From Octopus vulgaris (Eukaryota): a stretch of DNA of 64,000 nt. A program made the position numbers and the translations under genes. Each line of letters opens with the position of its first letter. Position 1 is the first letter of the stretch. The stretch spans positions 76,260,001 through 76,324,000 of the forward strand of contig OX597820.1 of the NCBI GenBank assembly GCA_951406725.2, in the 5' to 3' direction. Below the pieces are notes generated by a model. The model did no database searches and had not been told where the DNA came from. It saw only the letters and a list, made by a program, of their open reading frames with translations. Positions 2,460 to 59,899 of this stretch are shown here, piece by piece.

Positions 2460-2862
2460 AAGGCGGCGACCTGGCAGAAACGTTAGCACGCCGTGCGAAA
2501 TGCTTAGCGGTATTTCGTCTGCTGCTACGTTCTGAGTTCAAATTCCGCCGAAGTCAACTTTACCTTTCATCCTTTCGGGGTCGATTAAATAAGTACCAGT
2601 TACGCACTGGGGTCGATATAATCGACTTAATCCGTTTGTCTGTACTTGTTTGTTCTCTCTGTGTTTAGCCCCTTGTGGATAGTCAAGAAATAGGTATTTC
2701 GTCTGTTTTTATGTTCTGAGATCAAATTCCGCCTAAGTTGACTTCGCCGGTAATCCTTTCGGGGTCGATAAATTAAGTACCAGTTGCGTACTGGGGTCGA
2801 TCTAATCAACTGACCCCTTCCCCCATAATTTCAGGCCTTGTGCCTAAAGTAGAAACGAATAT
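2460..2862 (+). mobile_element. SINE family B (Meta-domain-like, internally duplicated), near full length
   Basis: AAGGCGGCGA.CTGGCAGAA head, B-box GAGTTCAAATTCC, and CCTTTCATCCTTTCGGGGTCGAT..ATAAGTACCAG present twice; near-identical copies at 15870, 43680 and 47152. Confidence 0.9.
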
Positions 2863-16262: not shown

Positions 16263-17100
16263 TTAATATCAAACATCAGCTCTTGCATGTAGGATGGATA
16301 AGGGTATCAGTTCAGTTTGTTGTGAAACCCCTCCTGTCGCTTTTTTTTTTCTTAGTCACGTAGCATTTATTGTGCTTGGTGACCTTAGCGGAAGAAGTTA
16401 AGTGGTGGACCTCACTAAAAGTATTGAAAACAGACCCCTTCCCGTTTGGCAAAACCCACCAAAATATTTTTTTCCAGTTCCACTTAAAAAGGTAAGTGAA
16501 GGTGGAACGCAAAGTGCTGCGTTTCAGCAAATTTATTGAAAGGTTGTTCGAAACTAATTGAACTGACCTGCTCTAAATATACAGATGTAGAATGAGACAT
16601 TTAGATGACGAAAAGGTACTTATTCTAGCGATCAGGAGATGTAGGTTTGTGAAGTTACCACGAGCAAACCTCAGAAATTTCCTTGCTTTGGGGAAATTAA
16701 TTCTAGAGATATGTGTTGTTTCAGTTATTGCATGCTTTTATGGAACCACTCTTTGAATGTATTTTACCCTTCTCTGTATCATACTCGGTCGTTTTGTGAA
16801 CCCTTCGTGTAGAAAAAAATCATCATCATTATAATTCTCATTCTTATTATCATTGAAAGACTGAGTTGGCAGAACCGTTACCATGCTTGGCAGGATGCTT
16901 AGCGGTAATTCCTCGGGGTTCACGTTCTAAGTTCGAATTGTGCCGGGGTTGATTTTACATTTCATCTTTTCGTGGTCAATAAAATAAGTACCAACTGAGA
17001 ATTGGGGTCGACGTAATCGACCTCTTCTCTCGCTCGAAACTGTTGGCCTTGTGCCAAAATCTGAAACCAGGGTGGCCACCTGAATCGACTTTGCCTGTCA

Positions 17101-17211
17101 TTCTATCGCGATCGATAAAGTAAGTACCAGTTGAACATTCTACCGCGATCGATAAAGTAAGTACCAGTTGAACATTCTATCGCGATCGATAAAGTAAGTA
17201 CCAGTTGAACA
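17101..17211 (+). repeat. Three tandem copies of a 37-bp unit inside a family B SINE fragment
   Basis: TTCTA(T/C)CGCGATCGATAAAGTAAGTACCAGTTGAACA three times. Confidence 0.95.
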
Positions 17212-47151: not shown

Positions 47152-47532
47152 TTTCTACTCTAGGCACAAGGCCTGAAATTTGTGGGGAGGGGCCAGTCGA
47201 TAAGATCTACCCTGATACGCAACTGGTACTTAATTTTTCGACCCGAAAGGATAAAAGGCAAAGACGACCTTGGCGGAATTTGAACTCAGAACGTTAAAGA
47301 CAGACGAAATACCTATTTCTTTACTACCCACAAGGGGCTAAACACAGAGAGGACAAACAAGGACAGACAAACGGATTAAGTCGATTATATCGACGCCAGT
47401 GCGTAACTGGTACTTATTTAATCGACCCCGAAAGGATGAAAAGCAAAGTCGACCTTGGCGGAATTTGAACTCAGAACGTAGCGGGAGACGAAATACCGCT
47501 AAGCATTTCGCCCGGCGTGCTAACGTTTCTGC
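47152..47532 (-). mobile_element. SINE family B, near full length, within a pile-up of family B fragments (45958-48030)
   Basis: Reverse complement of 2460-2862. Confidence 0.9.
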
Positions 47533-48387
47533 CATATCGCCAACTCTTGTCCGACACAGTAACATTTCTGCTAGCCCTTCACCTAACACTTCTTGTCATT
47601 ATAATCTATTATAGGTACAAGACAAGCAATTTAGGGGGAGGGGCTAAGTCGATTACTTCGACCCCGGCGCTCAAGTGGTATTTTATTTTATCGATCTCGA
47701 AAGAATGAAACCCTTACTGATTTAGGCACAACACCTGGCATTTTGGAAGAGGGGTTGGGCTAGGTAATTACATCTAACCTAGTCTTCAACTGGTGGTGGA
47801 ATTCGAACGCGGGACGTATGCTTAACGGCATTTTGTCCGGCGTGCTAACGATTCTGACAATTCGCAGCCCTAATTCTTGTTGTATAAACCTTTACTAATT
47901 TAGGCACAATGCCTGGCGTTTTGGGAGGGCAGGGGATAGCCAATTACATCGCTGCTAGTCTTCAACTGGTACTTATCGACCCCGAAAGGATGAAAGGCAA
48001 AGTTGTTCTTGGTGGAATTGGAAATGAGAATGTAAAACCTGAATCATATTCATGGTAGAAGATATAAAGACGACAAGTGTATAACAAAGAATAAAGTTTT
48101 CAAAGATGTCCCCTCTTATGACTGAAGCTTCAGTTCTACTTGTATGAACCCAACACCACCTCGAGAATCGAATGCTGTACGAATCATACAATTTCAAAGC
48201 GGGGTAAAAAAAAAAAAAAATTTTTTTAAACCCTTACGTTTTTCTTGGTTCTTCACGAGCTTCCAGCAAATTAATTTTTTTCTTTTCAGAATAATAGTGC
48301 CATCTTCACGGATCCAGCTTAATAATAATGAACACTCATCAATCCTACCACAACCACGACCACCACCACCGCCAGTATCTCCGTAAC

Positions 48388-51060: not shown

Positions 51061-51061
<1 letters not shown>

Positions 51062-51288
51062 TTTATTTTAAGCAGCAGAAAATTCAACAAAATCTGTTAC
51101 TCTGAGTTTCTCGTTGCCGTTCATCAGACTGTTTTTAGCAAAAACTGTCTGATGAACGGCAATGAGAAACACAGAGTAACACAGATGTTGTTGAATTTTC
51201 TGCTGCTTAAAATAAAGCATATTACTCTACCACTGGTATTTGAGTACTCTTTTTTTTCCACCTTGTTTCACATTTATGTGTTTACTCC

Positions 51289-51290
<2 letters not shown>
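51061..51290. mobile_element. Family I foldback element with an HHR in each arm (51094-51131 minus; 51145-51182 plus)
   Basis: Inverted arms 51061-51136 and 51140-51217; plus arm CTGT-CTGATGA-acg-GCAA-tga-GAAAC-acaga-GTA-ACAC. Confidence 0.8.
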
Positions 51291-54818: not shown

Positions 54819-55650
54819 AGCTGCCCAGCGAATGTTAACATAAAGCTGAAGAACAGTGAAAAAGAGAATACCTACGCAGAACTATTGAGAAATTTACAGT
54901 TATTCTAGCATTATTACAAGGTCAGGTTTATACCTGTAATAATTGGGGCCCTGAGATGTGTAACACACTAACTAAATACCAATCTTGAGAAATTAGGCTT
55001 CTCAACACCAGAAAGGAGAAATCCAATTCGGAGACTACAGATCCAATCCATTACTGGAACTGTAAAAATCTGTAAAACTTTCCAGAAGTTTATCATTTAA
55101 ATATATATGAGCATGTCTAGATATGAAACTATATGCATGAGAATATATACACACAGCAAAACATACAAATCTACAAACATACATGTTGGTGGTTGTCTAC
55201 TCCTTATGCAGAGATTTACAATTTTCTGTACCTACGCCTTAGAACCATCATGGCATCTGATGTAGCTTTTTAAACCAGACAATGTTCTGAAGAGACAGCC
55301 ACATAGACTGCATAACCAATTTGAACCAAGAGCTGCACACATAAATACATACATACATGCATACATACATGCATACACATATACATACATATATGCATAC
55401 ATATATGCAGGCATACATACATACATGCATACATACACGCATACACATATACATACATGCATGTATGCATACATATATGCATGCATACATACATACATTC
55501 ATACATACATTCATACATGCATACATACATATATACAAAAATCCTTGTTCTTGATGTTGAAATTCAAATGAAGGAGCCTTGGATCTAGGTTACAAACCGG
55601 TTCTTTCTCCATTAGCAAGAAATATTGGCATAAAACTGAACAATGACATA
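54819..55650 (+). mobile_element. Second R4/Dong-like 3' fragment (different subfamily), interrupted by an RTE piece; extra 3' end copy at 55740-55850
   Basis: SCPANVNIKLKNSEKENTYAELLRNLQLF..FIPVIIGAL...TGTVKICKTFQKFII*; 55540-55650 and 55740-55850 are similar to each other. Confidence 0.8.
55183..55335 (-). mobile_element. RTE-like LINE 3' end with C-terminal C2H2-like motif
   Basis: WLCSLCGCLFRTLSGLKSYIRCH..*, followed by a short 3'UTR. Confidence 0.6.
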
Positions 55651-56871
55651 TATACATACATGCATGCATACATATATGCATACATACATACATACATACA
55701 TACATACATACATACATACATACAAACATACATATATAATACCATGTTGATGTTGTTCAAATTCCAATGAAGGAGCTTCGGATCTAAGTTAGAAACCAAA
55801 TCTTTCTGTATTGCCAAAAACATCTCGAATTAAACTGAATAATGACATACATACATACATACATACATACATACATACATACATACATACATACATACAT
55901 ACATACATACATGCATGCATACATACTTATATGTATAGCTATAACTAAATAAGTGTGTATATTTGTCTCTATGTTCAACTACACTGCTTGACAACCGACA
56001 TGGTTTAATTTTTGACCGAGTAACTTAGCGTTCTCAGGAAAGAGGATCGATAAAATAGGTGCCAGTCTTAAAGAGAAAAGAAGTACTGGAGTCGTTTACT
56101 TCAAAGACTAAACTCGTCAAGGCGGTGCCCCAGCATGGCCGCAGTCAAATGTCCGAAAGAAGTAAAAGGAGATAAAAGAAGAAAAAAGCTGTCACTTGTT
56201 TTATTTGATGCTATTTAAACAGATGTCAGCCATGAACGAGCAGATTCATATCCAAAGACAATCCAGTTATGACCATCACTATTTCCCTATCTCAAACTAA
56301 ATTATGGGAGTTCCTACTTTCTAAAATTTATTTTAAAATTTCTTGGAGACGTGAGATGTGGGTTATGCGACTGCTATTTCTAGCATGTGGAGTGACTACA
56401 GGGTGTCTCTTTAATGCGCTGTATTCCCTGCACGTTCTAATGCCAGAGAGTACACTAGTATTTCTAAAAGAAAGGGGAAGGTAATGGGTCCAATACCTTC
56501 CACATGGCTACTGCATTACAGGAATCCAGACCGATCTTCAATAAATGTAAATTCCATGTGATCTAGGTCATCCACGTTCATTTTTATTTATTTATTTATT
56601 TATTTATTCATCTATTTATTTATTGAGTTGTCAGATAAAATCGTTCGTTGTTTTTGTCGTTGTTTTTTGTGCATAGCACTCCATAAGTCAGAAAAGCAGA
56701 ATAATTTATTCAAATTAAGCAATAAATAAAAGTCTTAGACAAAGAATAGTTACCAGAAAAAAGTTTCATAAAACACTGCCATAAAAATATACATTTTTTT
56801 TGTGTTTGTGCAAATAACATAGAAAAAAAATTGAAATAATTATGGACACACACAAACGCACATCTATATGT

Positions 56872-58002: not shown

Positions 58003-58377
58003 CACACATACATACATACATACATACATACATACATACATGTCCTGAAACATTTTTTTCACACCGTTTTTCTTCCTCCATTTTCCCCCTCGTATCTCTT
58101 TCTCTCAAAGAGCGTAGGGTCAATAGGTCAAAGATTTTTGTCATTCATCCCGAGCTTCAAATAAATACATTTATTTGTTGTCCCTTCACTTGCTTTGGTA
58201 TTTTGTTTTCTGTGCATTTCAACCACATATATATGTACGTGAGTGTATGTGTGCGCGCGCGTGTGTGTCTGTTTGTGCATTTAGCAACGGAGTGACTAAA
58301 GTGCTAACGCTTAAAACTCTCGGCCCTTCAGCTCACTCTGCTGTTTCCGCTAAATATTAATGAAATATATATATATA

Positions 58378-58409
<32 letters not shown>

Positions 58410-58424
58410 CATACATATATATAC

Positions 58425-58695
58425 CGGAGTAAGCACATAAATGTGAAACAAGGTGGAATAAAGAGCACTCAAAAACCAGAGGTAGAGTAATATGCTTTAT
58501 TTAAAAGCAGCAGAAATATAACAAAAGCTGTTACTCAGAGTTTCACGTTCCCGTTCGTCGGACAGTTTTGTTAACAAGCCTGTCCGACGAACGGGAACGT
58601 GAAACTCTGAGTAACAGCTTTTGTTATATTTCTGCTGCTTTTAAATAAAGCATATTACTCTACCTCTGGATTTTGAGTACTCTTTATTCCACCTT
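58425..58695. mobile_element. Family I foldback: near-perfect arms of about 116 bp, HHR (U4C) in each arm
   Basis: Arms 58450-58565 and 58580-58695; plus arm CTGT-CCGACGA-ACG-GGAA-CGT-GAAAC-tctga-GTA-ACAG. Confidence 0.88.
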
Positions 58696-59899
58696 TCAAT
58701 AACACAGGTAATTTTCCCTCTAAACTCTGAGATTGCATTTTTTAATGTCTCTATTCATATTCTCTGGAAATATAAAGATCGCAGGCTCAGAGAAACTAGT
58801 CTGAATGATATGTTTGACATTACACTTGAACAGTTATAAGCTTAAAAGAAGATGGTGATATCCGTGCTCATATTTGTACACTGAAGTAGCTACAACAGAT
58901 AAAAATCAAAGTGAACTCCAGCAAAATATGAAAAACGGAGAGGTTGTTACCGTACGGCAGCCGATCGACCAACATCGTGCTAAATATCTGATGCAGAAGT
59001 ATTCCAGACATGACTTTTTCGTCAAGGCTCGACCTCAAAATGTGAAGATCACTCTCCTCCCAACATTGGTCACACCATTTGTTTTGAATCCTTTATCGTC
59101 ATTCATGGCTATTTATTATTTTTTTATATGGTTTATCTGTTACTTGATTCACTCATTAGACTTCGGTCATGCGAGGATATAGATTCGAATGGTTCAGTCG
59201 CAGAAATCAACCTCAGTACTTATTTTTCTTTTATAGTTTAGTATTATTTGGTCGACCCTTTGTGATGAACCGCTGCGTGAGGGGGGGGGGCATAAACAAA
59301 CCAGCAACGGTTGCCAAGTGGTAGAGGAAATATAAACAAAAGGACAAAGACACGTGCACCCCTCCACACACACATAGATATATATACATAAAAACATACA
59401 TACATACTTTTACGTTATTTACATTTGACGGATAACTGTCCTCATCAAGATGAGGACAAATATTCGTCAAATGTAAATAATGTAAATGATGTAAACAATG
59501 TACATAATTCCATATCTCTTAAATATAGAACTGTATACATACTTACATACTTTATATTTATATTAAACAGGCTTCTACAGTTTCTATCAATTGCACTCAC
59601 AAGGCAGTGGTGGGTCATGCAGTGGGACTGAACCTGAACGCACATGGTTGGAAAACGAGCAGCTTAACCACACGGCTATTCCGGCGCCATATAAAAAAAA
59701 CAAATAAACAAATAAATATGAAATCTAGAAAATTATAGCTTTGCATCGTGTCTCAAGAAATCAGCATCATCGTTGAATCGATTCCAATCAATTTCATTCT
59801 TGAATTGAAAACAATTGACTACGTGCTGAATCAAGAATATAACTAAATTAATATTAAAAAAAAATAGATATATATCCACCATCTTTATTTCTGTTTCAG

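What the first reader, a model, noticed from the sequence alone, without database searches (positions are those of the whole stretch)
58450..58695. Near-perfect 246-bp hairpin pairing a ribozyme with its own antisense
The arms (about 116 bp, 2 mismatches seen) each contain a compact HHR (ACG-GGAA-CGT stem II, ACTCTGAGT stem III). A transcript from either strand makes the antisense arm first and then the ribozyme, so the long duplex should silence cleavage and form an ADAR/Dicer substrate. The repeated tail-out geometry (also at 51 kb) suggests a stereotyped fold-back step during integration.
Basis: partly seen in the sequence, partly recalled or inferred. Interest (0 to 1): 0.72.

Follow-up and report, generated by a model that had tools for sequence, protein, structure and literature searches.

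The report
Penelope retrotransposon head-to-head insertion stub
The hairpin is real but ordinary: it is a stump-sized, head-to-head insertion of a known kind of jumping gene (a Penelope-like retrotransposon), likely made by joining two short DNA copies of the element's RNA end, and its many sister insertions record how such elements likely insert rather than showing a ribozyme switch.

Summary
Observation confirmed: arms 58450-58565 and 58580-58695 pair at 114 of 116 positions, each with a type I hammerhead motif. It is the 3' end of a Penelope-like element (PLE) of the Hydra clade. Longer copies run into an RT + GIY-YIG ORF, and the 51-kb sister subfamily has an intact 711-aa ORF with the Hydra motifs. 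Head-to-head pLTRs, a one-sided tail, (TA)n targets and opposite-strand hammerheads are in print (PMC3846280, PMC8557442, PMC4209133). This scan has 40 such notes from at least 19 genomes.
Added here: 54 of 91 sampled loci are foldbacks. 46 of 48 classable ones pair two different fixed 3' ends 71 nt apart, with variable centres, so this is not a MITE. 5' ends pile up at the terminal hammerhead (18 of 30) but not at the upstream one of long copies (2 of 26). Best model: priming on both target strands, then end-joining. The focal copy is atypical: its right arm shares rare variants with the left and ends at a 6-nt host microhomology. Silencing, editing and dicing are untested, and the core carries U4C.

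The parts
58365..58423 (.). (TA)/(TACA)n microsatellite, target of the insertion
   Evidence: 43 of 51 short foldbacks have a TA-rich outer flank on the inverted side against 8 of 25 single-arm 5' ends
58424..58572 (-). left arm: 149-nt 3' end of a Hydra-clade PLE, ending at the distal fixed 3' end (A)
   Evidence: 97% identical to the end of the ORF-bearing copy L061; same end in 28 best-hit loci
58424..58494 (-). 71-nt 'tail' between the proximal end B (58495) and the distal end A (58424)
   Evidence: end classes; in tandem copies the element continues past A to the ATG
58528..58565 (-). type I hammerhead motif, core CCGACGA (U4C), 3-bp stem II with GNRA loop, near-palindromic stem III; predicted cut 58532/58531; stem I extends to 58520-58572
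   Evidence: same layout as Hydra-2_aMil in File S2 of PMC8557442; cleavage untested
58566..58579 (.). head-to-head junction centred on a TTAA microhomology (58571-58574)
   Evidence: commonest but not the only junction type
58573..58695 (+). right arm, unit positions 1-123; runs 45 nt past end B (58650) and shares two rare variants with the left arm
   Evidence: right-arm variants seen in contigs of X1 and X3
58580..58617 (+). second hammerhead motif; predicted cut 58613/58614
58690..58695 (+). 6-nt microhomology shared by the arm end and host DNA
   Evidence: contigs of runs X4, X5, X6 match from 58690 rightwards and carry other sequence to the left that is absent from the window
51061..51290 (.). 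foldback of the younger sister subfamily: B-ended arm on -, A-ended arm on +, core CUGAUGA, TA repeats on both sides
   Evidence: 95-97.5% to intact element L228
50895..50970 (+). older 3'-end fragment of the same family
   Evidence: 82%

Best explanation
The hairpin is a minimal head-to-head insertion of the 3' end of a Hydra-clade Penelope-like retrotransposon in a TA microsatellite, likely formed when the element's protein primed reverse transcription on both nicked target strands and the two short cDNAs were joined at their tips. Shown: family identity, two fixed 3' ends (A, B) 71 nt apart, A+B pairing, TA at both outer ends, variable junctions piled at the 5' side of the terminal hammerhead. 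Inferred: A and B are the two internal RT start sites; one priming uses each; both cDNAs often stop at or in the terminal hammerhead, because a short template begins there or because the complex lets go after copying the domain it is bound to; the tips join by microhomology (TTAA here). Inferred for this copy only: the right arm was probably copied from, or converted by, the left arm and rejoined to host DNA at a 6-nt microhomology. The duplex would bury both hammerheads in a read-through RNA, as a by-product.
For: Single-arm copies continue upstream into a UTR and an RT + GIY-YIG ORF. The sister subfamily has an intact 711-aa ORF with RWK, DKT, CxCX5C, CxxC and CxH; focal-subfamily fragments are 70-78% identical to it in 5 of 6 comparisons, the sixth being a short frameshifted piece at 53%. 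Of 91 loci: 54 foldback, 37 single; 46 A+B, 1 A+A, 1 B+B, 6 with one unclassed end; P about 4e-12 at p=0.5. 8 of 8 hand-picked long two-armed sister insertions are also A+B, with arms up to about 4 kb. B arm reaches further 5' in 19, A arm in 17, equal in 10. TA-rich outer flank 43 of 51 against 8 of 25. No position differs between A and B arms in 69 pairs. Arms mostly mutate independently (118 differences in 1975 sites) with a small excess of shared variants, 14 against 3.2 by permutation. One centre holds a copy of the local flank (L038), as expected of an end-joining junction. PMC11167929: a PLE protein cuts and extends both strands, starts at two internal sites that define the tail, and needs no hammerhead cleavage.
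Against: Trimming of palindrome tips after insertion could by itself symmetrise the 5' extents, so the 19:17 result does not exclude fold-back. The focal copy lacks a B end and a right TA flank; both arms share variants seen in 1 of 106 other arms each, which fits a cis copy better than two primings. The tail is 71 nt, not the published 30-40 nt. Why cDNAs stop at the terminal hammerhead is unresolved. Anchoring on an exact word samples two-armed loci about twice as often (59% raw, about 42% corrected by my arithmetic), and some 'single' loci keep remnants of an inverted arm. Clade is assigned by motifs, without a tree.
Confidence: 0.75

Rival explanations
1. One priming at A; the cDNA folds back on itself near the TTAA and copies itself as far as B, where the endonuclease or repair resolves it.
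For: Explains strict A+B pairing equally well; excess of shared variants between arms (14 against 3.2); best fit for the focal copy, whose arms share two rare variants and whose right end is a host microhomology.
Against: B arms reach further 5' than A arms in 19 of 46 pairs; 13 of 37 single-arm loci end at B; B ends abut TA repeats like primed ends; a templated flank copy sits in one centre.
Confidence: 0.17
2. The hairpin is itself a non-autonomous unit, copied whole from master hairpins by one pass of the PLE RT.
For: The perfect TTAA junction recurs at many loci and short copies are very abundant.
Against: Junctions are highly varied; no arm-specific fixed difference in 69 pairs; the same A+B rule holds for multi-kb insertions; no shared transduced flank was seen beyond B.
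Confidence: 0.05
3. A selected device in which the antisense arm silences the ribozyme or feeds ADAR/Dicer.
For: The duplex would abolish the hammerhead fold in a read-through RNA.
Against: Arms decay independently at 3.7% each, with CpG sites at 15%, as neutral DNA does; U4C core and weak monomer fold; no sense-strand A>G excess in genomic copies (A>G 0.012, T>C 0.014); the copy is not seen at this junction in runs X4-X6.
Confidence: 0.02
4. A TIR MITE with a TA target duplication, or an assembly chimera.
For: Short, high-copy, palindromic, TA-flanked; the centre of this copy is not bridged by an independent contig.
Against: The two termini are different sequences (A and B); copies are 5'-truncated at variable points and linked to an RT ORF; the right junction lies in a contig of X1; the layout recurs at 54 of 91 loci.
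Confidence: 0.01

Closest known systems
Hydra clade of C-terminal EN+ Penelope-like elements (PMC8557442; read: passages, sections 11 and 15, supplement parts 1-2 of 59)
   Same: RT then GIY-YIG; RWK, DKT, CxCX5C, CxxC/CxH, no CCHH; (TA)n targets; hammerhead laid out like Hydra-2_aMil; Penelope-13_HM is listed with a 5'-truncated inverted copy and hammerheads on both strands.
   Different: A different family from the listed octopus Hydra-1_Obim (its hammerhead differs); unit 3,365 nt with a long UTR; tail 71 nt; U4C core in the focal subfamily; thousands of ORF-less stubs are inferred from exact-match counts.
Adineta vaga Pen2a-type insertions (PMC3846280; 12 passages read)
   Same: Head-to-head inverted pLTR, one arm shorter, one-sided tail, palindrome or microhomology at the junction.
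   Different: There a 31-bp tail, 8-10-bp TSDs and a self-priming proposal; here TA targets, no discernible TSD as a rule, and end statistics leaning to two primings.
Anolis Poseidon PAc in vitro (PMC11167929; parts 1-2 of 4 read)
   Same: Two internal RT start sites defining the tail, AT-rich target, both strands cut and extended, hammerhead cleavage dispensable.
   Different: Different clade; there the start sites lie inside the ORF, here they lie in the 5' UTR, about 70 nt before the ATG; the parts I read do not model inverted junctions.
PLE minimal hammerheads (PMC4209133; parts 1-2 of 4 read)
   Same: Type I, palindromic helix III, predicted dimers, low activity; dual motifs on opposite strands 100-700 bp apart already reported in Schistosoma.
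   Different: Short stem II and U4C here; spacing under 100 bp.
Non-LTR retrozymes (10.64898/2026.07.22.740005, part 1 of 5 read; PMC7229834, listing only)
   Same: ORF-less, hammerhead-bearing, PLE-derived.
   Different: Retrozymes are head-to-tail repeats; this is head-to-head and colinear with the autonomous element's end.

Membership tests
Hydra-clade EN+ PLE | Single ORF, RT followed by C-terminal GIY-YIG, linked to this sequence | tested here: met
   decayed ORF upstream of the same arm in L061, L087, L098, L100; intact 711-aa ORF in sister L228 and L230. Pfam does not name it; homologue P0003 has a sub-threshold GIY-YIG hit; motifs read directly
Hydra-clade EN+ PLE | RWK and DKT motifs | tested here: met
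   both in the sister ORF; decayed or frameshifted in focal-subfamily fragments
Hydra-clade EN+ PLE | CxCX5C linker, CxxC and CxH around the conserved E and N, no CCHH | tested here: met
   sister ORF and focal fragments L092, L094, L104; no cysteine inside the GIY-YIG core
Hydra-clade EN+ PLE | (TA)n insertion and a canonical hammerhead near the 3' end | tested here: met
   motif matches File S2 layout; sister core CUGAUGA, focal core U4C
Hydra-clade EN+ PLE | Generally under 3 kb | tested here: not met
   tandem unit 3,365 nt; a tendency in the paper, not a diagnostic
Hydra-clade EN+ PLE | RT phylogeny groups with Hydra | not tested
   no reference sequences were brought into the script machine
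EN+ PLE insertion structure | Inverted 5'-truncated copy at the 5' end, tail on one side, partial tandems | tested here: met
   tail 71 nt rather than 30-40
Neptune-clade PLE | CX2-5CxxC linker and CCHH | tested here: not met
   my first label, from recall, was wrong
TIR MITE | Inverted repeats reaching both termini, fixed length | tested here: not met
   termini A and B differ; variable centres and lengths
TIR MITE | Fixed target-site duplication | tested here: inconclusive
   flanks are TA repeats; one clear longer duplication (L033) among the short loci examined
Non-LTR retrozyme | Head-to-tail repeats each with a hammerhead | tested here: not met
Active hammerhead ribozyme | Conserved core C3 U4 G5 A6 G8 A9, G12 A13 A14 | tested here: not met
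   U4C is the majority in the focal subfamily; U4C lowers activity in vitro but is tolerated in a viroid (PMC3088659, passages)
Active hammerhead ribozyme | Self-cleavage | not testable with these tools
   5' ends at the predicted cut are not clearly enriched: 1 of 145 arm ends at 39-45 in a sample biased against them, 4 of 30 in an unbiased one, two of them stem I junctions

The most novel reading that the evidence does not exclude
PLE integration is an asymmetric two-headed reaction: a dimer primes both target strands, one subunit always at the distal and one at the proximal start site, and the hammerhead serves as the docking domain of the RNP rather than as a cutter, so synthesis often aborts just as the terminal hammerhead has been copied, while an identical upstream hammerhead is read through. 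The stubs are fossils of this failed escape, and the intact young sister element makes it testable.
Probability: 0.3. Interest if true: 0.6.

Novelty: new member of a known kind. Interest (0 to 1): 0.27.

Why it matters
As a locus it is a dead transposon stub. The family statistics bear on an open question named in PMC8557442: how PLEs form their inverted ends and tails. Strict A+B pairing, TA at both ends and a stop zone confined to the terminal hammerhead are sharp predictions for an in vitro system, and this genome holds young intact Hydra-clade ORFs to test them with. Practically, thousands of such hairpins can be mis-annotated as MITEs or miRNA precursors and would be dsRNA substrates wherever they are transcribed (untested).

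Tried and rejected
Rfam: no hit at gathering score; weak hits are generic hairpins. Window ORFs gave nothing relevant. Pfam failed to name the ORF. Neptune label, recalled, rejected on motifs. Hammerhead cleavage as the source of 5' ends: not supported. A plain sequence-encoded RT stop, or the start site of the full-length mRNA, as the sole cause of the pile-up: disfavoured, since only 2 of 26 arms that reach the upstream hammerhead end there; caveat: these arms are survivors of 3.4 kb of synthesis. Arm homogenisation across the family: rejected as a rule. Fixed A-to-I signature in genomic copies: none (the C>T excess there is partly an artefact of the TA target at end B). Empty-site size at the focal locus: not resolved; the relatives' left sequence is not in the window, and the repeat-rich left flank had no contig cover. 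The monomer hammerhead folds no better than shuffles. Literature: no paper held 4 of 'Penelope, Neptune, palindromic, hairpin, tail-to-tail' or all of 'Penelope-like, twin priming, inverted, both strands'. These two searches are my only basis for saying that I did not find the two-primer statistics in print; subscription papers and bioRxiv supplements were not visible. PMC13282606 (passages) does not mention Hydra or hammerheads.

Full report
Observation. The palindrome is as described: arms 58450-58565 and 58580-58695, 114 of 116 pairs, a 14-nt centre with TTAA on the axis, z -34 against shuffles. Each arm holds a type I hammerhead motif reading outwards. The core is CCGACGA, not CUGAUGA. The left arm goes on to 58424 and meets a TA-type microsatellite. 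The window lies in a 2.8-Gb genome of 227 contigs; that it is octopus-like is my inference from size and repeats.

It is a large family. Exact words from the arm occur 460 times (38 nt) and 920 times (31 nt). The 51-kb hairpin belongs to a sister subfamily with 4,045 exact hits. I examined 91 loci from the first 100 places listed: six places were second arms of loci already counted, and three loci were not fetched. L044 was entered by hand as a long single arm. L111/L112 are near-duplicates and L048/L049 form one compound locus; each was counted. Numbering the arm 1-149 from 58572 leftwards, 3' ends fall at 149 (A) or 78 (B), each followed by TA repeats. 54 loci are foldbacks and 37 single (21 A, 13 B, 3 other). 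Among foldbacks, 46 are A+B, 1 A+A, 1 B+B, and 6 have an unclassed end (P about 4e-12 for 46 of 48 at p=0.5). Two-armed loci are sampled about twice as often, so the true share is nearer 40%.

Identity. Long copies continue upstream through about 1.3 kb of UTR into a decayed RT and GIY-YIG ORF. In tandem copies the sequence runs past A to an ATG about 70 nt later, so A and B are internal sites. The sister subfamily (arm 89% identical) has intact 711-aa ORFs in L228 and L230 and a 3,365-nt unit. The ORF has RWK, DKT, CxCX5C, CxxC and CxH and lacks CX2-5CxxC and cysteines in the GIY-YIG core. These are the diagnostics of the Hydra clade (PMC8557442 section 11). The paper's File S2 lists Hydra hammerheads of the same build, and File S1 lists a Hydra element with an inverted 5' copy and a different octopus family. 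I built no tree.

How the hairpins form. Both outer ends look primed: 43 of 51 short foldbacks have a TA-rich flank on the inverted side against 8 of 25 single-arm 5' ends. Centres vary; a perfect TTAA join is the commonest, others are trimmed or have inserts, and one holds a copy of its own flank (L038). The B arm reaches further 5' in 19 pairs, the A arm in 17, and 10 are equal; simple fold-back of an A-primed cDNA predicts that B never does, unless later trimming hides it. A and B arms show no fixed difference in 69 pairs (L003 and L007 left out as non-B, L012, L015 and L023 as duplicates), which argues against a master hairpin. In 28 best-hit loci the arms differ at 118 of 1975 sites and share 14 variants against 3.2 expected; in the unbiased set 15 against 6.4. 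So the arms come from like templates and then decay independently. The A+B rule also holds in 8 of 8 long sister insertions that I picked as opposite-strand pairs. PMC11167929 supplies the biochemistry: both strands cut and extended, two internal starts, cleavage dispensable. Two primings followed by end-joining is therefore my best model; it is inferred.

Why so short. 120 of 145 arm 5' ends lie at -18 to +38, none at -77 to -19, 17 beyond, and 8 past +38. The zone starts near the base of an extended stem I, which the sister keeps through G-U changes (read by eye). In the sister, 18 of 30 terminal arms end in the zone and 12 pass -248. Of 30 arms that were copied into the upstream pLTR, 26 reached the hammerhead and only 2 ended there (Fisher P 5e-5). 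The stop is thus not a plain property of the sequence, and most full-length copies come from longer-than-unit templates. Either a separate short RNA starts there, or the complex releases after copying its bound domain. Survivor bias in long arms is a caveat.

This copy. Its right arm passes B and ends at position 123. Both arms carry variants at 99 and 114, each found in 1 of 106 other arms; the right-arm letters are in contigs of X1 and X3. Runs X4, X5 and X6 (three samples, two studies, diverged from the window at 11 of 211 sites) match the right flank from 58690 and carry other sequence to its left, which is absent from the window. The right junction is therefore a 6-nt microhomology, likely with loss of host DNA, and the right arm was probably copied from the left in cis, at insertion or in later repair. 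This explains why the hairpin is longer and cleaner than its sisters. No contig spans the centre, so long reads are still needed.

The ribozyme claim. In a read-through RNA the duplex removes the hammerhead fold. But the monomer fold has probability 0.002, stem III pairs better as a dimer (-9.9 kcal/mol), and U4C is the subfamily's majority state with CpG decay on top. PLE hammerheads are weak, dimeric or protein-assisted (PMC4209133, PMC11167929). I have no data on transcription, editing or small RNAs.

Known or new. Head-to-head pLTRs with a tail and junction palindromes (PMC3846280), inverted truncated copies and TA bias (PMC8557442) and opposite-strand hammerhead pairs (PMC4209133) are published. 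New here are the family, its clade, the 71-nt tail, and the terminal-versus-upstream control. Verdict: new member of a known kind; interest 0.27.

Noticed in passing
L228 (G000:C1:64214200-64222500) and L230: Young sister-subfamily insertions with intact 711-aa Hydra ORFs; L228 is a 7.6-kb palindrome of two more-than-unit arms, 99.8% identical.
   Followed up: partly
L064:1745-2855: Two B-ended arms, both truncated at -78, frame a 788-nt spacer whose own ends are inverted repeats of about 30 nt, giving a TIR-like 1.1-kb unit; one L228 arm also ends at -77.
   Followed up: no
L038 and L051 centres: Short foreign inserts at the head-to-head junction; in L038 a copy of the flank 144 nt away.
   Followed up: partly
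sister hammerhead, e.g. window 51144-51190: Canonical CUGAUGA core but an A-A mismatch closing stem II; the focal subfamily has the pair but U4C. Both keep a GNRA loop II, a palindromic stem III and a 4-nt palindrome just upstream of stem I (CTAG or TTAA).
   Followed up: partly
L048/L049 (G000:C1:169926000-169929000): Compound insertion with an inverted duplication of host DNA between element arms.
   Followed up: no
L091:3670-4000: Upstream pLTR joined from UTR position 161 directly to the ORF start, skipping the hammerhead and tail; deletion or splicing.
   Followed up: no
window 59380-59500: A second, unrelated imperfect inverted repeat centred near 59445.
   Followed up: no
window 2465-2711 and 47295-47541: Two 247-nt repeat copies in opposite orientation, 94% alike.
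   Followed up: no
window 17099-17211 and 55449-55937: Tandem arrays of 37-nt (3.1 copies) and 199-nt (2.5 copies) units.
   Followed up: no
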